Positions 2,633-40,870 of a stretch of DNA of 42,702 nt are shown piece by piece. Every line of letters starts with the position of its first letter. Positions within the stretch are counted from its first letter, which is position 1. The notes beneath the pieces are model-generated. The model was not told the DNA's origin and ran no database searches. It saw nothing but the letters and a program-made list of their open reading frames with translations. The position numbers and the translations under genes are program-made. This DNA comes from a virus, in the IMG/VR virus record IMGVR_UViG_3300045988_133767, positions 1-42,702 of that record; one strand, given 5' to 3'.

Positions 2633-2967
2633 AACTCAAAGAGCTAATTGAGAATCTATATAAAAAGTTAGTGGGTGGTATGAAAATGCCACCTTCTTCT
2701 TTTTGGCATCTAACTATACATGAAGCTAATTTAGCACTAGAAGGGCATAAAAAAGAACAACAAGAGCAATATAACTTAAGTCTATGTTGCTTACAAAATG
2801 CTTTAGGAATGGCATTTGGAGGGGATAAATTCAAGCCTATCAATCCTTTTGAGAGCGCTAAGAGTAAAAAAGAAGCTCATAAAGTAAGCAAGAAACAAAG
2901 AGAAGAAAACTTGACATATATAAATAATTTATTTGAAAAATTTGGAGGTGGTGAAAATAGCAACTAA
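2297..2967 (+). CDS. tail assembly chaperone frameshift fusion (gpGT-like; -1 shift at 2623-2629)
   Basis: The downstream ORF (track 2671..2967) is in the -1 frame and is open back to 2620, with no independent RBS or ATG near 2620. This is the canonical G/GT arrangement upstream of a tape measure gene. Confidence 0.7.
2623..2629 (+). promoter_or_regulatory. -1 programmed ribosomal frameshift slippery heptamer G_GGA_AAG
   Basis: The zero-frame codons are GAG GGA AAG TAG. The -1 frame is open from 2620 to 2967. The X_XXY_YYZ pattern is satisfied, and the heptamer is the same as the lambda G/GT site. Confidence 0.8.
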
Positions 2968-3655
2968 AGTTTTAAATGTAAAGATCAATGCTGATATAGC
3001 TTCCTTCAAAACAAAAATGCAAGATGCTAGAAAATCAATCCAGGATATGTCAGAAAGCATTAAAAAGGCGACTGGCAATAGTAAATTAAGTGATGCATTA
3101 GGAGCTTCTGACTTTGGCAAAAAGCTAGAAGAAGTTAAAACTAAAGCATCTAATTTAGGACAAGTATTTAAAGCATTACCTGGACCAGCAAAAGCACTTG
3201 TTGTTGTAACTGCAGTATTAACAGTTACTAAAAAGTTATATGATGCTGGAAAACAGAGGTTTTTTGATGGACTGAATAACATAAAAGATACAGTCTCCCC
3301 TGTGTTTCAAGGTATGCTCACCTCAATAAATGCAGTTAAAGATGCTTTTAGTGAGTTAACAGGATTTGATTTTAATCTTTCAAGTCTTATAACAACTGGA
3401 GCAAACTTTGAATCACAAATGAAAACAGTTGCTACAATAGCTGGAAGTGTAGGAACTGAATTTGACCAGTTAGTTGCAAAAGCTAGAGAATTAGGAGCTG
3501 CAACTACATTTAGCGCTAGTCAAGTGGGCCAAGCAATGCAATATATGGCCATGGCTGGTTGGTCAACTCAAGAAATGCTTGACGGAGTACAATCAACATT
3601 AAATTTAGCAAAAATAGGGGCTACAGATTTAGGAACAGCAAGTGACATTTTGACT
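2933..3655 (+). CDS. tail tape measure protein, exon 1
   Basis: The coiled-coil N-terminus is followed by the TMP core motif ...ATTFSASQVGQAMQYMAMAGWSTQEMLDGVQSTLNLAKIGATDLGTASDILT. Coding-like sequence stops at ACT 3653-3655. The exact start is uncertain (TTG 2933, or GTG 2948/2951 next to GGAGG 2944-2948). Confidence 0.8.
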
Positions 3656-3943
3656 AAAATATTGGTCGGTTTAGTAGAAATACTATTCAAAAAATATTCG
3701 GTGAATTGCTGGAAGGCTAAGTTAATATTTGTAATTTATGGTATTAATATGCTAATCAGCAACCAAGCCATGGAAAGCCGTAAAAGTACATGGAAGGTTC
3801 AGAGACTAGGAGAATGAATAGGCAAATAATAATTTCTCCCACGAGCGCCGAACACCTTACTATTAAGTTAAAGGTGATGATATAGTCCCATCCTCTTATG
3901 AAAGTAAGAGTTCTAGGATAAAGAGCCTAGATATAAGATAATG
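3656..3943 (+). mobile_element. group I intron 1 in the tape measure gene (ORF-less, 288 nt)
   Basis: The 5' exon ends in U. Exon TTGACT (3650-3655) can pair with GGTCGG (3664-3669) to form P1 with a U.G pair at the splice site. There is a GAAA-tetraloop hairpin TAGTA-GAAA-TACTA. The P7 candidate is GACTA (3804-3808) with TAGTC (3883-3887), set in a GATATAGTCC context. The intron ends in G at 3943, and exon 2 resumes in frame. Confidence 0.8.
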
Positions 3944-4141
3944 GATGATTTAACTGCACTTGGCATGCAAGCAAATCAAGCTGGCGACTTTGCAGATAAA
4001 TTAGCTGCAACTATTACTAGAAGTAATACCGATGTTGTTTTATTCGGTGAATCTATGAAACAAACAGGCGCTATCGCTGGAGCATTAGGTGCTTCTATGA
4101 CAGATTTATCAACTAGTATCGGTCTAATGGCAAATGCGGGT
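3944..4141 (+). CDS. tail tape measure protein, exon 2
   Basis: Encodes DDLTALGMQANQAGDFADKLAATITRSNTDVVLFGESMKQTGAIAGALGASMTDLSTSIGLMANAG, which continues the TMP core motif exactly. There is no RBS before the apparent ATG at 3941. Confidence 0.8.
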
Positions 4142-4402
4142 AGACATACATGCTCGGTTACTAAGAAATTAGTAGCATAAAATACAGGGTTAAAATTGGA
4201 AAGCTAAGTCGAAAGATATGCTAATCAATTACCACTTCTATTAGGGATAATAGAAAGGTTTAGAGACTAGATAAAGTAAACTAGAACAGTTGAAATATCC
4301 ACGAAATCCTGCACCTAAGTTTAGAAAATATGGTGAAGAGATAGTCCGATACTCTTAGGAAACTAGGAGAGATAAGGATAAAGAGCCTTATTGTAACAAT
4401 TG
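4142..4402 (+). mobile_element. group I intron 2 in the tape measure gene (ORF-less, 261 nt)
   Basis: The 5' exon ends in U (GGT). Exon CGGGT (4137-4141) pairs with GCTCG (4152-4156), giving a U.G at the splice site. The P7 candidate is GACTA (4265-4269) with TAGTC (4342-4346). There is a GAAA-loop hairpin CTCTTAG-GAAA-CTAGGAG. The shared 3' block GGATAAAGAGCCT is present, and the intron ends in G at 4402. Confidence 0.75.
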
Positions 4403-4447
4403 ATTAAAGGTTCAAAGGCAGGTATGTCTTTGAAGAATATGTTGGCT
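4403..4447 (+). CDS. tail tape measure protein, exon 3 (45-nt micro-exon)
   Basis: Encodes IKGSKAGMSLKNMLA. This is the conserved G-IKGS-AG-LK motif of TP901-type tape measure proteins, in frame with both flanking exons. Confidence 0.75.
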
Positions 4448-5828
4448 AGAATATTGGTCGGTTTAGTAGAAATACTATTCAAAAAAGATTCGGCAATATC
4501 GGTGAAGGCTAAGTTTATTAATAATTGTAAATATGTTATAATATTTTTAGGGATAGTTAAGGAAGTCGCGAGCCTTAATGACAAGAAAGTTATCCGAGCT
4601 TTCTTCCCTTGTTAAATAAATCGGAAAATAAAAATACTGTCGGAGGTGTTTTTTATTATGAAAAAAATATGTATTTGTTGTGGTTTAGAAAAGGATATAA
4701 CAGAATTTTCTTTTAGAAAAGATACTAATAAGTATAGAAATCAATGTAAAGATTGCAGAAAGCAACAGAAAGCTAAATACGATAAAGAATATAATACCAA
4801 AAACAAAGAACGTAGAAAACAATATAGAAAAGAAAATGAAGCTAAAATAAAAGAACATAATAAACAATATTATGAAAAACATAAAGAAGTTTTAAAGAAA
4901 AATACTTCTGAATATTACCACAACAACAAAGCAAAAGTTTTAGAAAAATGCAAAGAATATAGAGAAAATAATAAAGAAAAAATAAAAATATCACAAAAGA
5001 AATATCGTGAAAGCAATAAAGTGTATTTAAATGAAAAGAGTAAACAGTATTACGAAGAACATAAAGAAGTTTTAAATGAAAGAAGAAAAAATTATCGTAT
5101 AGAAAATAATTTAGAAGTACGTAAATTAGATTACGAATATAGATTAAAAAATAAACACAGATATAAATACACTTGTAAGAATTGTGGCAAAAGCTTCACG
5201 GATTTTAAATTAGGAAGAAAGTTTTGCTCAACTGAATGTTTTAACGAGTATAATCAAGGCAGTAATAATCCTAATTACAATGTGAATTTAACAGATGAAG
5301 AAAGAGCTGAAAATAGAGATACAAAAGAATATAAAGTATGGAGAAAAAAGATTTTTGAAAAATATAATTATACTTGCCAATGTTGTGGGCAACAAGGCGG
5401 AGATATAGTTGCTCATCATTTAGATTCTTTTGATAAGAACAAAGAAAGTAGGCTTGACATAGAAAACGGAATAGTTCTTTGCAAGAAACATCATAAAGAA
5501 TTTCATCATATCTACGGATATGGTAACAATACAAAAGAACAATATGAACAATTTATAAATGATAAGGTATCTAAATAAGATGCCTTTTTATTTTGCAATT
5601 ATTAATAGATACGTTAATACCGAGATAACTTTATAGATTACGAAAGGCTATAAAGTATCGTAGAGCGTAGAGGGTGAATAAATATAATCCCTCCAAGAGT
5701 GTCGAACATCTTAACAAGTAAAGTTGAAGATGAAAATGTACGCCAAACTGAGTTGGAATTGACCAACTGATGAAAATGAAGGAAACTTCCAGAGGTGAAG
5801 ATAAAAAGCTTCACGATAATAACTATTG
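4448..5828 (+). mobile_element. group I intron 3 in the tape measure gene, carrying an HNH homing endonuclease ORF (1381 nt)
   Basis: The 5' exon ends in U (GCT). Exon TTGGCT (4442-4447) pairs with GGTCGG (4456-4461). The first 39 nt of the intron are near-identical to the start of intron 1. The P7 candidate is GCGTA (5665-5669) with TACGC (5739-5743). The intron ends in G at 5828. An ORF with its own RBS occupies 4658-5578. Confidence 0.8.
4658..5578 (+). CDS. intron-encoded HNH homing endonuclease
   Basis: RBS GGAGGTG is followed 9 nt later by ATG 4658. The N-terminus is Cys-containing, followed by Lys-rich repeats (KxYYExHKEVL). There is a zinc-ribbon motif CKNCGK...FCSTEC. The C-terminal HNH motif is CQCCG...VAHHLDSF...NGIVLCKKHHKEFHH. 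Confidence 0.85.
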   Translation: MKKICICCGLEKDITEFSFRKDTNKYRNQCKDCRKQQKAKYDKEYNTKNKERRKQYRKENEAKIKEHNKQYYEKHKEVLKKNTSEYYHNNKAKVLEKCKEYRENNKEKIKISQKKYRESNKVYLNEKSKQYYEEHKEVLNERRKNYRIENNLEVRKLDYEYRLKNKHRYKYTCKNCGKSFTDFKLGRKFCSTECFNEYNQGSNNPNYNVNLTDEERAENRDTKEYKVWRKKIFEKYNYTCQCCGQQGGDIVAHHLDSFDKNKESRLDIENGIVLCKKHHKEFHHIYGYGNNTKEQYEQFINDKVSK

Positions 5829-8483
5829 AATATGGCAAATCCAACAGACCAACAAGACAGAGCTTTACAAGAATTAGGAATGACTGCTGACAAAACAGGA
5901 AGTTATCTAAAAACAACAGCTGACGGATGTACAGATTTAGAAGCTACAGTAAAAGCATTAAGAGAAGGCACAGAAAATATGACAAGAAGTCAAAAAGCAG
6001 CTTTGATAGCTACTGTTGCTGGTAAAAATGCTTTACCAGGAGTTATGTCACTTGTTAATGCATCAGCAGAAGAATACAACAAGCTATCAGAAGCGATAGA
6101 CAATTCAACTTCTACAGTATCAATGTTTAATGAAAATATGAACATCTTAGGTTTAAAAGGCGAAGATGCTACAAAGAGAATAGAAGTCATGAAAGATGTA
6201 TTTTCTAATACTGAAACATCAGCAACAGCATTAGGATTGTCTAGTAAAGACTTAGGATATGCAATATCTTTACTTGGTGATGATTGTAAAGTTAGTTCTC
6301 AATCTGTAGAAGATTTACTCGATGTAGTAGAATCTATGGATAATGCTAGTGGTAAAGTTGATAAATTTTGGAGAAGTGTAGGAAATGCTAAAAACATAGA
6401 AATAGACGGAAAAGCAATAAATCAACTTATAGATTATAACGGAACTTTAAGTACTATAGATAATTCTATAGTTGGACTTAGTGATCATACAGTAGAATAT
6501 GCTAAAGCTCATAATGAAAACTATAAAAACACAAAAGAATATGTTAAATCACTTGTAAAAGAAGGAATGACAATAGACGATGCTAACAGTAAGCTTTCTA
6601 AATATGGAATAGAAGCTGAAAAAATATCATTATCTACATTATCAATGTCTCAAAAGACAGATTACCTAAGACAAGCATTTAAGGGCATGTCAGACGAACA
6701 AATAAAAGCTAAATTGCAAACTATAGGACTTGGAGATAGCTTTGATGAAGTTAACGAAATAGTTGATATGTCAGATGAAAAATATGCAACTTACAAGAAG
6801 AATCTTAAAGAAATTGAAGGATTATCAACTAGATTAGCTGACAGCATTGATGAAACAACAAAATCAACATTTTTAGCATTATCAAGTGCGATAGAAGATA
6901 GTTTAATAGGTGCATTTGAAAAAATGAAACCAGCGCTTATAAACGGCTCTCAAGCACTTACAGACTTTTTCTCAACTTGGAGAAACGGGGATAAAAACAC
7001 TTATACTTTTGATGGATTTGAAAAGGGATTAGCTGACTTAGAAACAAAAGTATCTAATGCAGCTAAAAATATACCTAATTTAATATCAAATGCAATAAGT
7101 GGTGCTAATAGATTTATAAGTGGTGGTTCTTTAGACAGTTTATTAAGCATGGGTAGTAGTATAGTTAAAAACATAGCTCAAGGCATAATAAACAACAAAG
7201 AAGGTTTATCAGCTGCAATAAGTAGTTTGATATCAAAAGTTTGTAGCTGGATTCAAGAAAATGGTCCTATGATCCAAGAAGCTGGCAAAGTTATCTTAGA
7301 AGCTATAGGAAACGGAATAAGAAATAATAGAGATCAAATAAATTCAGCATGCGGTATTATCTATGATGCAATGAACGATTGGTCGGCTGCAAATGCAGAA
7401 AATATGGGTATGCTTGGTGGTTCAGTAGCAGATAAATTTATATGGGGATTCTTAAAAGGCTTTACAATGGATAAATTTGCTGGTATAAAAGGATTTTTTG
7501 CTGGATTATTTAACAGCGACGGACAAGATGCTTATCAACAATGGGGTATTTCTAGTGGGCAAAATTACACCAATGGTATAAACTCAGGACTTGAACAAAG
7601 TAAATCTACAACAAATGCTACTGCAACAGAAATAGGCGATGGCATTTCCCAAAATATAATGAATAAGCTAGAAACTATGAATGCAAGTCAACTAAAAGAG
7701 TTAGAAAAAGAATTAAAATCCTTACAAACAACAACTCAAAATGTAGCTAATGGTATAGGTTCAAGCTTTGGAAAAATTAGAAATACAGTTAGAGAGAATT
7801 TAGTGGGTAGTGTTAACATAGGTAGAAATCAATTTGTCAACCTAGCTAATATTATAAGAAATCAATCTCAAAATGCTAGAAATAGCGCAACAAGAAGCTT
7901 TATATCACTTAGAAAAGTTATAAATACACAAATAACACAAGCTAGAACTGCTGTAACAAGTAAGATGATATCTATTGCTAATGTTGTAAGAACACAGTCA
8001 CAAAATGCACGTAACAATGCTACAAGAAGCTTTATATCACTTAGAAAAGTTATACAAACTCAAATGTCACAAGCTTATAGTTCTGTAAATAGTTATATGT
8101 CTAAAATAGCATCTGCTACAAATAGAACACTTAACACTAAAGTTAATGTTACTAGAACTGTTAATACTGTAAATCAGAGTGCTAGAACAGCTAATTTAAA
8201 AGCTGTAAACACAATGGCATATTCAAACTTAGCATATAGTGCTATAAGAGCTACAAATAATGCTGCTACTGCTAGTTTAGCTAGTACATCAACTTCAAGC
8301 TTTTCTAGTTCAACAGGTGTATCTAGTTCTTCTAATAGCACAGCAAAAGCTACTACAAGAGATATGAGGATAGTAATGCCAGTATATCTTGATAGCAAGG
8401 TCATAGGTGAATCTACTGCAGATATAGTAGATGATAAAATAAAAGTAAAAGCAAGAAGAGAAAACAGGAAGAGAGGTAGATAA
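5829..8483 (+). CDS. tail tape measure protein, exon 4
   Basis: Starts NMANPTDQQDRALQELGM, which completes the ...KNMLA|NMANPT motif. It then runs as a long helical protein with C-terminal tandem repeats. The apparent start at TTG 5826 has no RBS. Confidence 0.85.
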   Translation, partial: NMANPTDQQDRALQELGMTADKTGSYLKTTADGCTDLEATVKALREGTENMTRSQKAALIATVAGKNALPGVMSLVNASAEEYNKLSEAIDNSTSTVSMFNENMNILGLKGEDATKRIEVMKDVFSNTETSATALGLSSKDLGYAISLLGDDCKVSSQSVEDLLDVVESMDNASGKVDKFWRSVGNAKNIEIDGKAINQLIDYNGTLSTIDNSIVGLSDHTVEYAKAHNENYKNTKEYVKSLVKEGMTIDDANSKLSKYGIEAEKISLSTLSMSQKTDYLRQAFKGMSDEQIKAKLQTIGLGDSFDEVNEIVDMSDEKYATYKKNLKEIEGLSTRLADSIDETTKSTFLALSSAIEDSLIGAFEKMKPALINGSQALTDFFSTWRNGDKNTYTFDGFEKGLADLETKVSNAAKNIPNLISNAISGANRFISGGSLDSLLSMGSSIVKNIAQGIINNKEGLSAAISSLISKVCSWIQENGPMIQEAGKVILEAIGNGIRNNRDQINSACGIIYDAMNDWSAANAENMGMLGGSVADKFIWGFLKGFTMDKFAGIKGFFAGLFNSDGQDAYQQWGISSGQNYTNGINSGLEQSKSTTNATATEIGDGISQNIMNKLETMNASQLKELEKELKSLQTTTQNVANGIGSSFGKIRNTVRENLVGSVNIGRNQFVNLANIIRNQSQNARNSATRSFISLRKVINTQITQARTAVTSKMISIANVVRTQSQNARNNATRSFISLRKVIQTQMSQAYSSVNSYMSKIASATNRTLNTKVNVTRTVNTVNQSARTANLKAVNTMAYSNLAYSAIRATNNAATASLASTSTSSFSSSTGVSSSSNSTAKATTRDMRIVMPVYLDSKVIGESTADIVDDKIKVKARRENRKRGR

Positions 8484-21901: not shown

Positions 21902-21960
21902 TTACTGACAATTTACTGACCAGTTAAGTTTTTACTGACAAAACTGACAATTTACTGACT
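21902..21960. promoter_or_regulatory. cluster of five (T)TACTGAC repeats (candidate integrase arm-type sites, int-proximal arm of attP)
   Basis: Copies lie at 21902, 21913, 21932, 21943 (ACTGACA only) and 21952. The last copy overlaps the int stop codon. Confidence 0.5.
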
Positions 21961-23079
21961 TAGTATATTGTCAATTTTGTCAACTGCTATCTTATCATTT
22001 TCCTTAAAAGCGTGCGCGTAGATTTTTAATGTAATAGATATGTCGGAATGACCCACGCGTTCTGATATTGTTTTTACATCTACACCAGATGCAACTAACA
22101 TAGAAACATGAGAATGTCTTAATGCATGTAGCTTTTTAAATTCAAGCCCAATTCTTTTAATAAATCGTTTAAAAGTAATATCTAAATTGTACGGATTATA
22201 ATAATTGTTATTGCTGTTTATGCATACTGTGTCATATTCTTTTTCTTTCATTAAACCTTGTAACTTTAATTTATTTTGTCTTAATTTCTCTTTTTTTAGC
22301 ATGTCAAAAACATGATCTGGCAGAGAAATTTTTCTTATTGATGATTTACTCTTTGGTTGCTTCATGATATATTTACCTTCTATGTATTGTAAATTATATT
22401 GAATTTTTATAGTTTTATTTTCAAAGTCTACACAATCCCATGTTAAACCTAAAACCTCACCGCGTCTTAGACCTCCATAGATCAAAAGCTTTATAGCATT
22501 TTGAAAATATATACTTTCACTTTCTAAAGCGTTTAGTATCTGTTTTATTTCTTCTATCGAATATATTTCTTCTTCGTGTGTTTTATTATTCTTTGGAAGG
22601 ATAATAAAATCAGTAATCTTTTTATTTATCTCTTGTAATCTGTATGCTTCATTTAGTACAGCATTGCATAATTGCATTATTTTTCGTTTTGAGCGATAAG
22701 CTAAATCTTTTTGAAACACATAATTAACAAATGTTTGATATTTATTTACAGTTATGTCACTTAATTTCATATTTCCCCAATAAGTTTCGACATGTTTTTT
22801 TACGATACTTTTCGCACAAGCAATAGTATTTTCAGATATTCCTAACTTGCTATCGTAATATCGATAACAGCGATTTGTAAAAGAAATGTTACTCGGCAAA
22901 GCATAAATATCATTATTTATACTATTTTTAACTTCTATTAATTTTTTATCAGCATCTTTTTTATTTGCGTATGATCCTTGACTCTTTTGTTTCTTTTTGC
23001 CAACTTCATCTATATATTCTACATATACATAATATTTGTCATTTCTTTTACGTATAAAACTACTTAAGATTTTTTTCAT
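21952..23079 (-). CDS. int: tyrosine integrase
   Basis: 375 aa. The C-terminal catalytic signature ALRHSHVSMLV...GHSDISITLKIYAH is present, along with an N-terminal SAM-like arm/core-binding region. Confidence 0.9.
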   Translation of the reverse strand: MKKILSSFIRKRNDKYYVYVEYIDEVGKKKQKSQGSYANKKDADKKLIEVKNSINNDIYALPSNISFTNRCYRYYDSKLGISENTIACAKSIVKKHVETYWGNMKLSDITVNKYQTFVNYVFQKDLAYRSKRKIMQLCNAVLNEAYRLQEINKKITDFIILPKNNKTHEEEIYSIEEIKQILNALESESIYFQNAIKLLIYGGLRRGEVLGLTWDCVDFENKTIKIQYNLQYIEGKYIMKQPKSKSSIRKISLPDHVFDMLKKEKLRQNKLKLQGLMKEKEYDTVCINSNNNYYNPYNLDITFKRFIKRIGLEFKKLHALRHSHVSMLVASGVDVKTISERVGHSDISITLKIYAHAFKENDKIAVDKIDNILSQ

Positions 23080-32790: not shown

Positions 32791-32803
32791 AAGGGTGAAT
32801 AAA

Positions 32804-34240
32804 ATGGAATTTGAATGTGGTAGCATGACATCATTTGGCTGTGAACGTATGGACGGAGTAAAAGAATTAATCATGGCAGAGATAGAAGAAGCGATAGAAG
32901 AGATAAAAGAACAGGATGAAGCAAGAAGACCAGAATTAATAGCAATGATTCAACAAGAGAAAATGTGTACAAATGCTTGTTGCTATGGATGTGAAAAATC
33001 TAATTTATGTGTTTATACTTGCAATAGAGTAGATTGGCCAGATGAAGAAAGAAAAATTAATTATAAAGATGAAGAATTGAGACAAGAAAAACTTTTAGGC
33101 ATCAAATGTTACAACTGTGCAAAAGAAATCAATCAAGAAGGACATAAAGCAAATATTCGAAGTGATGAAGCTGATTGTGTATGGTTATGTGATGATTGCT
33201 TTAAAAAAGCATGTGGAGACCAAAGTAAATTTGAAGATCTAGAAAGAGAAAGATTAAAATACGAATTTAAACAAGAAGAAATAAAACAAGTTGATTATGA
33301 ACAACTGACATTTTTTTTAGGAGGTGACAACATGTTACAGATATTAGAGCTATTCGGAGGAATTGGAAGCCCTAGAGTAGCACTTAGAAATTTAGGAGTA
33401 CCAGTAAAAGCAATAGATTACATAGAAATAGATGAAAAAGCTGTTAGAAGCTATAATGAGATATTCAGAAATGAATTAGAATATAAAACTCAAGATGTAA
33501 GAGGCTGGAATCTTAAACCAGATATACTGATTCATGGTTCACCTTGTCAGAGTTTTAGCATTGCAGGTAAACAACAAGGAGCAGATGAAGGAAGCGGAAC
33601 AGAATCAAGTTTAATGTGGGAAACCATTAATATAATAAAACAAATGGGAATATGGAAGCCTAGAGTAGTTATTTGGGAAAATGTAAAAAATGTTTTATCA
33701 AAGCATATGATAAAAAACTTTAATCGATATTTGGAAGAAATGCAAAAACTAGGTTATACAAATTCATTTGAAATATTAAATGCTATGGATTTTGGATTAC
33801 CTCAAAATAGAGATAGAGTGTTTACTATAAGTTGTTTAGATGGAACATATTTTAATTTCATGGAACTACAAAGAAAACAATTAAGACCACTATCAGACTT
33901 TTTAGAAGATGAAGTTAGTGAAGAGTATACAGTAACTCAACCAAGCATTTTAAGAGGTATAGGTAAAGCAGGCACGATAAAAAGAACAACTGTTATAAAA
34001 GATTTTGCCTATACCATTACTGAAAGACAAGATAGATGTCCAGCACAAGTTATTGATCTAGGAAATAATAAGTACAGATTTCTTACAGATAGAGAGTGCT
34101 GGAGATTACAAGGCTATTCTGATGAAGATTATAATAACGCAGCTAAAGTGAATAGCAAAAGAGCATTATATAAACAAGCTGGAAATAGCATACCAACTAC
34201 AATATTTGAAGCTATTTTTAAAGTACTATTGGATTTATAA
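32804..34240 (+). CDS. DNA (cytosine-5)-methyltransferase fused in frame to an N-terminal Cys-rich domain
   Basis: The MTase motifs are ELFGGIGS (I), PCQSFS (IV), ENV (VI), QNRDR (VIII) and GNS (X). An internal RBS AGGAGGTG followed by ATG 33332 marks the start of the MTase core. The upstream 176 codons are Cys-rich. Confidence 0.85.
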   Translation: MEFECGSMTSFGCERMDGVKELIMAEIEEAIEEIKEQDEARRPELIAMIQQEKMCTNACCYGCEKSNLCVYTCNRVDWPDEERKINYKDEELRQEKLLGIKCYNCAKEINQEGHKANIRSDEADCVWLCDDCFKKACGDQSKFEDLERERLKYEFKQEEIKQVDYEQLTFFLGGDNMLQILELFGGIGSPRVALRNLGVPVKAIDYIEIDEKAVRSYNEIFRNELEYKTQDVRGWNLKPDILIHGSPCQSFSIAGKQQGADEGSGTESSLMWETINIIKQMGIWKPRVVIWENVKNVLSKHMIKNFNRYLEEMQKLGYTNSFEILNAMDFGLPQNRDRVFTISCLDGTYFNFMELQRKQLRPLSDFLEDEVSEEYTVTQPSILRGIGKAGTIKRTTVIKDFAYTITERQDRCPAQVIDLGNNKYRFLTDRECWRLQGYSDEDYNNAAKVNSKRALYKQAGNSIPTTIFEAIFKVLLDL

Positions 34241-40363: not shown

Positions 40364-40870
40364 ATGAATTTTAAACAAGCATTAGAAGAAATGAAAAAAG
40401 GAATACCTATGAAATTACCTTCATGGGGTGGCTATTGGTGTTGGGACAATGAAAAAGAAACTATTATGATGCACTGTAGACCAAAAGATGCAGATGAAGG
40501 ACAAGGTCCTATATTAGATATAAGAGAAACACAAAGAGTTGAATACACCCTAGGCAATGTTTTATCTGATGAATGGGTAATTGCTGACAATAAAAACTGT
40601 ACTTTATTAGGTGGAACTCCTACTTTCGGTTTTAGTGAAGCTATAAAATACTTAAAACGTGGATTAAAAGTGTGTAGACAAGGTTGGAATGGCAAAGGAA
40701 TGTATTTAGCTCATGTAAATTCTTATCAATATAAAGTAGATGGAGAAGTGCATAAAGATAGTTTATTTTTATCACCTTGGATAGGAATGAAAACAGCAGA
40801 TGGGAAATTTGTTCCGTGGTTAGCAAGTCAAACTGATATGTTAGCAGAAGATTGGATGTTTGCTGAATAA
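40364..40870 (+). CDS. tandem DUF2829-like protein (Tad2-like, candidate anti-Thoeris sponge)
   Basis: The second half reads FGFSEAIKYLKRGLKVCRQGWNGKGMYL...MKTADGKFVPWLASQTDMLAEDWMFAE, which is the DUF2829 signature as recalled. The first half (MNFKQALEEMKKGIPMKLPSWGGYW...LSDEWVIAD) is a divergent copy. Confidence 0.65.
   Translation: MNFKQALEEMKKGIPMKLPSWGGYWCWDNEKETIMMHCRPKDADEGQGPILDIRETQRVEYTLGNVLSDEWVIADNKNCTLLGGTPTFGFSEAIKYLKRGLKVCRQGWNGKGMYLAHVNSYQYKVDGEVHKDSLFLSPWIGMKTADGKFVPWLASQTDMLAEDWMFAE

What the first reader, a model, noticed from the sequence alone, without database searches (positions are those of the whole stretch)
4142..4402. Intron 2: second ORF-less group I intron with a different guide sequence
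The 261-nt element lies between ...GLMANAG and IKGSKAG.
- P1 candidate: exon CGGGT (4137-4141) pairs with GCTCG (4152-4156), with a U.G pair at the splice site.
- It shares the AGAGACTAG and GAGATAGTCC core and the 3' block GGATAAAGAGCCT with intron 1.
- Its 5' end differs, consistent with adaptation to a different insertion site.
Basis: seen in the sequence. Interest (0 to 1): 0.65.

Follow-up and report, generated by a model that had tools for sequence, protein, structure and literature searches.

The report
Self-splicing intron in phage tail gene
Window 4142-4402 is a genuine 261-nt group I self-splicing intron with no ORF, interrupting the tape-measure (tail-length) gene of a temperate gut phage; this is a known kind of element, made more interesting because its catalytic core is shared with a sister intron elsewhere in the same gene.

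Summary
Rfam's group I intron model matches 4116-4369 above its curated threshold. Removing 4142-4402 joins ...GLMANAG to IKGSKAG... in frame. Thirteen related phage contigs without an insert there align gaplessly across exactly this junction. P1 is exon CGGGU (4137-4141) paired with GCUCG (4152-4156), with U.G at the splice site, and the last intron base is G4402. A 73-pair P1-P9.1 model with the P7 pseudoknot holds across 27 homologues: 88% of cells are paired and 57 pairs show compensatory changes. No ORF longer than 22 aa lies inside the intron.

The kind is already known. Tourasse and Kolsto (2008) described group I introns at three tape-measure sites in Bacillus cereus-group prophages, including homologous introns with different guide sequences. 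A B. anthracis phage carries a related intron 1 nt from this site.

Three results go beyond the finding:
- The intron is a mosaic. Its core (nt 46-168) is almost identical to an intron at codon 200 in sister phages. Its P1-P2 and P9 match other introns in this part of the gene.
- One prophage shows core gene conversion between the two co-resident introns.
- Exon substitutions cluster around the intron sites.

Splicing itself remains untested. Interest is modest.

The parts
3944..4141 (+). Tape-measure exon 2 (DDLTALG...GLMANAG), whose last 5 nt form the 5' strand of P1
   Evidence: In-frame spliced CDS. PF10145 spans all the junctions. phiSM101 TMP aligns without a gap across the junctions.
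4142..4402 (+). Intron 2: 261-nt ORF-less group I intron (subgroup IA architecture)
   Evidence: Rfam RF00028 53.9 bits, gathering score 50. Covariation on 27 sequences. Intron-less alleles align gaplessly at 4141|4403. No internal ORF above 22 aa.
4137..4156 (+). P1 hairpin: exon CGGGU plus A4142 paired with U4151 plus IGS GCUCG (4152-4156), with U4141.G4152 at the 5' splice site
   Evidence: The -2/IGS pair is G-C here and C-G in the site A, B and D introns (column pair 9/23 is CG 14, GC 10).
4157..4176 (+). P2, 8 bp with a GAAA loop; 30 nt here are identical to the site-C intron of L355
   Evidence: (7 of 8 pairs with compensatory change).
4185..4191 (+). P3 5' strand (pairs with 4305-4311)
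   Evidence: 89.7% of cells paired, 5 of 7 pairs compensatory.
4194..4259 (+). P4-P5-P5a-P6-P6a domain
   Evidence: In L480 all of P6a is replaced on both strands and all 8 bp are kept.
4265..4269 (+). P7 5' strand GACUA (guanosine-binding helix), pseudoknotted with P3; pairs with UAGUC at 4342-4346
   Evidence: 100% paired in all 27 sequences.
4270..4299 (+). P7.1/P7.2 extension typical of subgroup IA
   Evidence: P7.1 93.5% paired, 3 of 4 pairs compensatory; P7.2 weaker at 64%.
4305..4311 (+). P3 3' strand
4312..4335 (+). P8 hairpin
   Evidence: 97% paired. Positions 4324-4325 in the loop vary among copies.
4336..4346 (+). J8/7 (AAGAGA) and P7 3' strand UAGUC
4352..4369 (+). P9, 7 bp with a GAAA loop
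   Evidence: all 7 pairs compensatory. The A4357G variant keeps a G.U pair.
4373..4390 (+). P9.1 hairpin with the conserved loop AUAAAGAG (the GGATAAAGAGCC block)
   Evidence: (96% paired, 5 of 5 pairs compensatory).
4402..4402 (+). Terminal guanosine (omega-G), the 3' splice site
   Evidence: Sequence. It is the only junction that satisfies U at -1, a terminal G and the reading frame.
4403..4447 (+). Tape-measure exon 3 (15 codons, IKGSKAGMSLKNMLA) between intron 2 and intron 3; most of it lies in the exon stretch that travels with intron 2
   Evidence: (13 of 45 nt differ from the otherwise near-identical L017).

Best explanation
Window 4142-4402 is a group I (subgroup IA-type) self-splicing intron without a homing-endonuclease gene. 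It sits between codons G301 and I302 of the tape-measure protein gene of a temperate siphophage of gut Bacillota.

Inferred mechanism, from established group I chemistry. The pre-mRNA folds into P1-P9.1. An exogenous guanosine bound in P7 attacks after U4141, which is held in a U.G wobble by the guide GCUCG. The freed exon then attacks after G4402. This joins GGU|AUU and restores the conserved ...GLMANAG-IKGSKAG... segment, without which no full-length tape measure can be made.

At the DNA level the intron is an optional element. It is present or absent among near-identical phages, and it travels with about 24 nt of upstream and 33-42 nt of downstream exon sequence, which looks like co-conversion.

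It is a mosaic. The contiguous core, nt 46-168 (P3 inner pairs through P7.2), is almost identical to that of an intron at codon 200 ('site A') in sister phages. P1-P2 and P9 match introns at or 9 nt from site C that have different cores. The most likely cause is gene conversion between paralogous introns in the same gene. The target-specifying periphery stays with the site while the core is homogenised.

Shown: anatomy, covariation, exact junction, polymorphism, mosaicism. Inferred: splicing activity, how the intron moves, and the direction of conversion.

The confidence given (0.88) is for the main claim, a genuine splicing-competent group I intron. The gene-conversion sub-claim I put at about 0.65.
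For: Identity as a group I intron.
- Rfam RF00028 scores 53.9 bits against a gathering score of 50, E = 4.7e-11.
- The spliced CDS is in frame, 1200 aa, with PF10145 at residues 177-381 across all junctions.
- phiSM101 TMP aligns ungapped across the junctions, and 987 phage records match the spliced N-terminus.
- Thirteen related IMG/VR contigs with no insert at this site (L004-L017 apart from L003, four of them fully intron-less) align gaplessly at 4141|4403.

Structure.
- With 73 pairs on 27 sequences, 88.3% of cells are paired, against 68% in shuffles (0/500) and 31-45% with slid partners.
- 57 pairs show changes on both sides. The covariation score is 0.556 against 0.20 in shuffles.
- Intron 2 matches 75 of 76 columns that are at least 85% conserved among 24 relatives.

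Variation among 14 natural copies (97-100% identical). It is confined to J2/3, the P8 loop, one A-U to G.U change in P9, and a whole-helix swap of P6a that keeps all 8 bp.

Guide sequence. IGS position C4153 pairs with exon G at -2 here. The site A, B and D introns have G pairing with C.

Abundance. The exon-2 read-through ORF is indexed in 73 blocks of public assemblies. These include a human gut metagenome and a 734-kb bacterial contig, so the phage also occurs as a prophage.

Co-conversion.
- Window and L017 differ at 37 positions in 1300 nt of CDS. Eight lie at 690-723 and 22 at 879-1008, around sites B, C and D.
- L484 has intron 2 but not intron 3, with a breakpoint in the last 5 nt of exon 3.

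Mosaicism.
- Segment identities are given.
- The informative-site test gives Fisher p = 0.0016 and 0.0001.
- In L480, intron 2 and the co-resident site A intron are 100% identical over nt 46-168.
Against: - No RNA data exist, so splicing is inferred.
- The Rfam score is only 4 bits above threshold, because the model misaligns P1/P2.
- P10 is weak: only 2 bp can form with the 3' exon.
- P7.2 is poorly supported (64% paired).
- The covariation alignment is a MAFFT alignment projected from a structure derived on this sequence, which favours the structure. The slid-partner and shuffle controls address this only in part.
- The contigs carrying intron 2 are close relatives, so they are not independent observations.
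- The nuclease, if any, that mobilises this ORF-less intron is unknown.
- Exon-flank divergence could also come from ordinary homologous recombination with a diverged phage rather than endonuclease-driven homing.
Confidence: 0.88

Rival explanations
1. The similarity to the site A intron reflects a single ectopic transposition, by reverse splicing or illegitimate homing, from codon 200 to codon 301. The periphery (P1, P2, P8, P9) then adapted by mutation while the core was held by purifying selection. This is the 'adaptation via peripheral domains' model that Tourasse and Kolsto proposed for B. cereus TMP-IVS1/IVS2.
For: - The two target sites resemble each other (ATGGCT|ATGGCTGGT against AATGCGGGT|ATTAAAGGT).
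- The IGS needs only one change.
- The same pattern of conserved core and divergent periphery was reported in B. cereus (PMC2504315).
Against: - The core is identical even at unpaired, weakly constrained positions, while the periphery is only 25-79% identical.
- P1-P2 is 39/43 identical to the intron of L355, and P9 is 20/21 identical to L261b. Both have different cores, so convergence would be needed at 8 of 8 informative P1-P2 positions.
- L480 shows a discrete P6a patch copied between co-resident introns.
Confidence: 0.2
2. The element is a decayed, non-splicing relic of a group I intron. The tape-measure gene of this phage is broken (a defective prophage) or is expressed as separate fragments.
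For: - The Rfam score is close to threshold.
- P10 is weak.
- Gene callers annotate separate ORFs.
Against: - 75 of 76 conserved family positions are retained.
- All helices are intact.
- Substitutions among the 14 copies preserve pairing.
- The exons stay open, in frame and under synonymous-only change: 1 amino-acid change among the 22 substitutions around sites C and D.
- The same arrangement recurs in many roughly 42-kb phage-sized contigs.
Confidence: 0.04
3. The intron is a real ribozyme but spreads only by hitch-hiking on the HNH endonuclease encoded in intron 3, 45 nt downstream. This would be collaborative homing: cleavage near site D and co-conversion carry intron 2 along.
For: - Sites C and D are 45 nt apart.
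- 13 of the 14 sequences with intron 2 also have an intron at site D (in L478 a 303-nt ORF-less derivative).
- One run of exon substitutions spans both sites.
Against: - L484 carries intron 2 without intron 3, and its exon sequence switches to the intron-less type between the two sites. The two introns are therefore separable.
- The cleavage site of the HNH enzyme is unknown.
- The contigs are not independent.
Confidence: 0.3

Closest known systems
TMP-IVS1 / TMP-IVS2 group I introns of Bacillus cereus-group prophages (Tourasse & Kolsto 2008, PMC2504315)
   Same: - ORF-less group I introns in the conserved N-terminal domain of a siphophage tape-measure gene.
- Several insertion sites per gene.
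- Two homologous introns about 80% identical at different sites, with a conserved P3-P7 core, divergent P1/P2/P8/P9 and different guide sequences.
- Presence and absence vary among related prophages.
- A related intron in Bacillus phage Tavor_SA (KY963369) splits FAQNG-L|KGSDAG, 1 nt from this site.
   Different: - Different host clade: a low-GC gut phage whose TMP is closest, at about 40-44% identity, to Clostridium and Clostridioides phage TMPs.
- Only about 56-72% nucleotide identity to the Bacillus intron.
- The insertion point is offset by 1 nt and the IGS differs (GCUCG against GCCC).
- Here the core is essentially identical to the sister intron, and a conversion patch is caught in one prophage. 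This points to recombination rather than only gradual adaptation.
Three self-splicing group I introns in orf142 of Staphylococcus phage Twort (Landthaler & Shub 1999; recalled from memory)
   Same: Multiple small ORF-less group I introns of the phage IA type interrupt a single phage gene.
   Different: - Twort is a large virulent myophage and the host gene is different.
- Splicing was shown experimentally there but not here.
Phage T4 td / nrdB / sunY introns and domain shuffling between them (Bryk & Belfort 1990; recalled from memory)
   Same: - Subgroup IA phage introns with shared core sequences.
- Recombination between the conserved cores of different introns in one genome.
   Different: - In T4 the recombination was seen as laboratory deletions between introns in different genes.
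- Here it appears as natural gene conversion between introns about 0.6-2 kb apart in one gene, with both introns retained.
Collaborative homing of ORF-less introns with a separately encoded endonuclease (Bonocora & Shub 2009; Zeng et al. 2009; recalled from memory)
   Same: An ORF-less group I intron lies next to a homing-type endonuclease gene that could mobilise it through co-conversion.
   Different: - Here the candidate nuclease sits inside a neighbouring intron rather than free-standing.
- No cleavage data exist.
- L484 shows the two introns can be separated.

Membership tests
Group I intron (Rfam RF00028) | Covariance-model score at or above the curated gathering score | tested here: met
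   53.9 bits against 50, E = 4.7e-11, full model 1-253 matched at 4116-4369.
Group I intron (Rfam RF00028) | 5' splice site after a U that forms a U.G wobble in P1 with an internal guide sequence | tested here: met
   U4141.G4152 lies within a 6-bp P1. UG is found at that column pair in 21 of 27 sequences, and the adjacent pair covaries (CG 14, GC 10).
Group I intron (Rfam RF00028) | Terminal guanosine (omega-G) at the 3' splice site | tested here: met
   G4402 precedes ATT AAA. It is the only junction consistent with the frame and with the intron-less alleles.
Group I intron (Rfam RF00028) | Conserved core P3-P8 and P4-P6 with a P3/P7 pseudoknot, supported by compensatory changes | tested here: met
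   73 pairs, 88.3% of cells paired, 57 pairs with changes on both sides, 0/500 shuffles as good, slid controls 31-45%. P7 is 100% paired.
Group I intron (Rfam RF00028) | Precise excision restores an uninterrupted host gene | tested here: met
   In-frame 1200-aa TMP. Gapless alignment to 13 alleles without an insert at this site and to phiSM101 TMP.
Group I intron (Rfam RF00028) | GTP-dependent self-splicing of the RNA | not testable with these tools
   No RNA or biochemical data are available. This needs RT-PCR and an in vitro splicing assay.
Subgroup IA (phage-type, IA2-like) | Extra P7.1/P7.2 helices between P7 and P3' | tested here: met
   P7.1 (4270-4273 with 4296-4299) is 93.5% paired with 3 of 4 pairs compensatory. 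P7.2 is weaker at 64%. The IA2 label rests on homology to the B. cereus TMP introns that their authors classified as IA2. It was not classified independently here.
Mobile group I intron with its own homing endonuclease gene | An endonuclease ORF (LAGLIDADG, GIY-YIG, HNH or similar) inside a peripheral loop | tested here: not met
   The longest ORF wholly inside the intron is 22 aa. By contrast intron 3 encodes a 306-aa protein with a weak HNH_2 match, and site A introns in relatives carry LAGLIDADG-type ORFs.

The most novel reading that the evidence does not exclude
The tape-measure gene of this phage population holds a small family of paralogous group I introns: at least five insertion sites within 116 codons and up to four introns per gene. 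Their catalytic cores would undergo concerted evolution by gene conversion, while site-specific modules (P1-P2 and P9-3' tail) stay with their insertion sites. Intron 2 would then be a natural chimera, and the system would show how group I introns are retargeted by module exchange rather than by point mutation of the guide.
Probability: 0.55. Interest if true: 0.5.

Novelty: new member of a known kind. Interest (0 to 1): 0.33.

Why it matters
For annotation: the tape-measure gene of this widespread gut prophage is intact, not fragmented. Gene callers split it into four or five pieces, and the 79-aa read-through 'protein' they call appears in 73 blocks of public assemblies. Recognising the introns corrects tail-length and host-range inferences that are drawn from TMP sequences.

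For biology: near-identical phages differ only in which of five sites are occupied, with exon substitutions clustered at those sites and a core-conversion event caught in one prophage. They form a convenient natural series for studying how ORF-less group I introns spread, hitch-hike and exchange domains. The phenomenon itself has been described since 2008 in Bacillus prophages.

Tried and rejected
- Megablast of the locus against cultured phages found no close relative. The only useful hit was an 83% match of the 3' end of intron 3 to an intron splitting the terminase gene of Clostridium phage vB_CpeS-1181.
As a result the organism carrying the prophage (GCA_039061085.1) could not be named.
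- Of the three metagenome hits, one (L476) was a chance match in a GC-rich gene.
- Rfam at a relaxed threshold does not detect intron 3, whose core is interrupted by a 1-kb ORF.
- No custom covariance model was built, because the roughly 280-column model would exceed the calibration limit. nhmmer plus MAFFT were used instead, so peripheral helices of distant homologues are imperfectly aligned. The P9 identities to site A introns are underestimates because of a register shift.
- Strict hitch-hiking of intron 2 on intron 3 was considered and weakened by L484.
- An internal ORF, a twintron and an intein were considered and dismissed: there is no ORF, there is a single ribozyme core, and the insert is non-coding.

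Full report
**Setting**

The window is a 42.7-kb temperate siphophage genome with 31% GC. It encodes:
- a tyrosine integrase (21952-23079, minus strand);
- an amidase endolysin;
- a Terminase_3 large subunit;
- an SPP1-type portal;
- a C5 DNA methylase;
- a Tad2-like protein.

The finding lies in the tail tape-measure protein (TMP) gene. Reading the sequence and joining four exons gives a 3603-nt ORF with a single terminal stop. The exons are 2951-3655, 3944-4141, 4403-4447 and 5829-8483. The spliced product carries Pfam PF10145 (PhageMin_Tail) at residues 177-381, E = 1.4e-42, across all three junctions. The three inserts are:
- intron 1 (3656-3943, 288 nt);
- intron 2 (4142-4402, 261 nt), the finding;
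- intron 3 (4448-5828, 1381 nt), which holds a 306-aa ORF with a weak HNH_2 match.

Yes.
- The exon ends ...GCA AAT GCG GGT at 4141 and resumes ATT AAA GGT at 4403.
- CGGGU (4137-4141) pairs with GCUCG (4152-4156), with U4141.G4152 at the splice site. A4142-U4151 extends the helix.
- The last intron base is G4402.
- Rfam's group I model matches 4116-4369 at 53.9 bits against a gathering score of 50, E = 4.7e-11. Intron 1 scores 105.9 bits.
- AGAGACTAG and GGATAAAGAGCCT each occur exactly twice in the window, once per intron.
- GAGATAGTCC is exact only in intron 2. Intron 1 has GATATAGTCC.
- The longest ORF wholly inside the intron is 22 aa. The 79-aa ORF 3941-4180 is exon 2 reading 12 codons into the intron as far as a UAA in J2/3.

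**Exact junction**

- The TMP of Clostridium phage phiSM101 aligns to the spliced protein without a gap at any junction. The motif reads IGLMANSGIKASQAG against IGLMANAGIKGSKAG.
- 987 phage records match the spliced N-terminus.
- IMG/VR holds close relatives of this TMP. Four are intron-less (L005, L006, L015, L016). Nine others have introns elsewhere in the gene but none at this site.
- At the DNA level all thirteen align gaplessly across 4141|4403.

**Structure**

RNAalifold on seven introns recovered P1, P2, P3, P4, P5, P5a, P6, P6a, P7.1, P7.2, P8 and P9.1. I added P7 (GACUA 4265-4269 with UAGUC 4342-4346, pseudoknotted with P3) and P9. All 73 pairs are canonical in intron 2.

I projected this structure onto a MAFFT alignment of 27 distinct introns. 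These came from related and unrelated phage contigs and from Bacillus phage Tavor_SA. The result:
- 88.3% of cells pair, against 68.0% in column shuffles (0/500) and 31-45% when partners are slid by 1-3 columns.
- 57 of 73 pairs show changes on both sides.
- The covariation score is 0.556, against 0.20 in shuffles and 0.08-0.13 for slid partners.
- P7 is paired in every sequence. P7.2 is the weakest helix at 64%.

Intron 2 agrees with the family consensus at 75 of 76 columns that are at least 85% conserved in 24 relatives. The P7.1/P7.2 extension places it in subgroup IA. P10 is weak: only A4403-U4151 and U4404-A4150 can form.

**Natural variation**

The 79-aa read-through ORF is indexed in 73 blocks of public assemblies. 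Among them are a human gut metagenome contig of 42.8 kb and a 734-kb contig of NCBI genome GCA_039061085.1, so the phage also occurs as a prophage. With the IMG/VR and metagenome hits I compared 14 copies of intron 2, all at the same site and 97-100% identical. Differences are limited to:
- nt 37 and 42, in J2/3;
- nt 183-184, in the P8 loop;
- nt 216, A to G, which turns an A-U pair into G.U in P9;
- in L480 only, 11 changes that replace both strands of P6a and keep all eight pairs.

**Guide sequence and other sites**

The TMP of this phage population carries introns at five or more sites:

| Site | Position | Where seen |
|---|---|---|
| A | after codon 200 (YMA\|MAGW) | sister phages |
| B' | after codon 223 | L475 only |
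| B | after codon 235 | intron 1 |
| C | after codon 301 | intron 2 |
| D | after codon 316 | intron 3 |

Occupancy ranges from none to four introns per gene. The introns at sites A, B and D use the IGS GGUCG against exon (U)G(G/A)CU. Intron 2 uses GCUCG against CGGGU. The single IGS difference is therefore compensatory with exon position -2.

More distant TMPs have introns in the same small region:
- L355 (51% amino-acid identity): exactly at site C.
- L261: 9 nt upstream.
- Tavor_SA: 1 nt downstream.
- L290: 2 nt downstream.

The conserved GLMANxGIKGS segment is thus a recurrent target.

**Mosaic origin**

Intron 2 is 82% identical overall to the ORF-less site A intron, but the identity is very uneven.
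- nt 46-168 are identical except in P6a and, against some copies, nt 70.
- P1-P2 is 79% identical, P8 42%, P9 43% (an underestimate because of a register shift) and the 3' tail 25%.
- P1-P2 is 39/43 identical to the L355 site-C intron, whose core is only 54-59% identical.
- P9 is 20/21 identical to L261b.

I counted informative sites at which the site A intron and L355 differ:

| Region | Intron 2 matches site A | Intron 2 matches L355 |
|---|---|---|
| nt 1-43 | 3 | 8 |
| nt 44-170 | 39 | 10 |
| nt 211-261 | 5 | 14 |

Fisher's test against the central region gives p = 0.0016 for nt 1-43 and p = 0.0001 for nt 211-261.

In prophage L480, both introns sit in the same gene. There intron 2 has acquired the site A version of P6a, and the two introns are 100% identical from nt 46 to 168. 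I read this as gene conversion of the core between co-resident paralogous introns, with the target-specific periphery retained. The alternative is transposition from site A followed by adaptation of the periphery. That is the interpretation given for the analogous B. cereus introns. It is less likely because it needs convergence on another intron's P2.

**DNA-level mobility**

L017 lacks introns at sites B, C and D but is otherwise nearly identical to the window. Over 1300 nt of spliced CDS there are 37 differences. Eight fall at 690-723 around site B, and 22 fall at 879-1008 around sites C and D. Only one of those 22 changes an amino acid.

L484 has introns 1 and 2 but not intron 3. Its exon 3 is window-like until the last five bases and then switches to the L017 type. 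So intron 2 travels with about 24 nt of upstream and 33-42 nt of downstream exon sequence, and it is separable from intron 3.

This is the pattern expected from homing with co-conversion, or from recombination with a diverged donor. Which nuclease, if any, starts the process is unknown. Intron 3's HNH protein, 45 nt away, is a candidate, but L484 argues against strict dependence on it.

**Comparison with what is known**

Tourasse and Kolsto (2008, PMC2504315) reported the following for Bacillus cereus-group prophages:
- group I introns at three TMP sites;
- IVS1 and IVS2 80% identical, of subclass IA2, with a conserved P3-P7 core, divergent P1/P2/P8/P9 and different guide sequences;
- patchy distribution among related prophages.

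The intron in B. anthracis phage Tavor_SA is 71.5% identical to the 3' 160 nt of intron 2. It lies 1 nt from site C.

No cultured phage has a close copy of intron 2. Other distant relatives lie in Streptococcus thermophilus phages near the start of the genome, and between the portal gene and the next ORF of Clostridioides phage CD1801.

The finding is therefore a new member of a known kind. What is additional is the sharply bounded shared core, the conversion patch caught in one prophage, and the dense presence/absence series.

**Verdict**

Splicing itself remains to be shown. Interest is modest.

Noticed in passing
window 3656-3943: Intron 1 is a 288-nt ORF-less group I intron (Rfam 105.9 bits) after codon T235, with IGS GGUCG pairing with exon UGACU. 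In relatives L008, L009, L013 and L480 the same intron carries a roughly 1.2-kb insertion, which in L480 encodes a 321-aa HNH-type ORF.
   Followed up: partly
window 4448-5828: Intron 3 is 1381 nt and holds a 306-aa ORF (4658-5578) with a weak HNH_2 match. Rfam does not detect it. Its first ~95 nt are 84% identical to intron 1, and its last 213 nt are 82-83% identical to an intron that splits the terminase large-subunit gene of Clostridium perfringens phage vB_CpeS-1181. L478 carries a 303-nt ORF-less derivative in which nt 92-1158 are deleted.
   Followed up: partly
L475 810-1183 (minus strand): A variant of the same phage lacks intron 1. Instead it has a different 374-nt intron 12 codons upstream (after AKIG, codon 223), whose 3' end resembles intron 3. 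This is a fifth insertion site in the gene.
   Followed up: partly
L007-L014, L017, L478-L481, L486 (CDS position 600|601): Sister phages carry an intron after codon 200 (YMA|MAGW). It occurs as a 262-nt ORF-less form or with an inserted ORF (1.0-1.8 kb in total). In L478, L481 and L486 the ORF is a 247-aa protein with a weak LAGLIDADG_3 match. Some TMP genes therefore hold four introns.
   Followed up: partly
L290, L280, L261, L281: More distant TMP genes (37-58% amino-acid identity) carry introns at further positions. These include around codon 271-279, and 9 nt upstream or 2 nt downstream of site C. The PF10145 domain is a general hot spot for group I introns.
   Followed up: partly
window 40364-40870: An ORF with a strong Pfam Tad2-like (Thoeris anti-defence 2) match, E = 8.5e-28, lies between an HTH regulator gene and the scaffold gene. 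Relative L484 has an Acb2/Tad1-hairpin family protein at the equivalent place.
   Followed up: no
window 21952-23079 (minus strand) and 32795-34240: A tyrosine integrase and a C5 cytosine DNA methylase are present. The phage is temperate, and a near-identical TMP locus lies in a 734-kb contig of genome GCA_039061085.1, whose organism was not identified.
   Followed up: partly
window 4178-4180: The exon 2 reading frame runs 12 codons into intron 2 and stops at a UAA in J2/3. Ribosomes on unspliced RNA would therefore traverse P1-P2 but stop before the catalytic core. The consequence for splicing is unknown.
   Followed up: no
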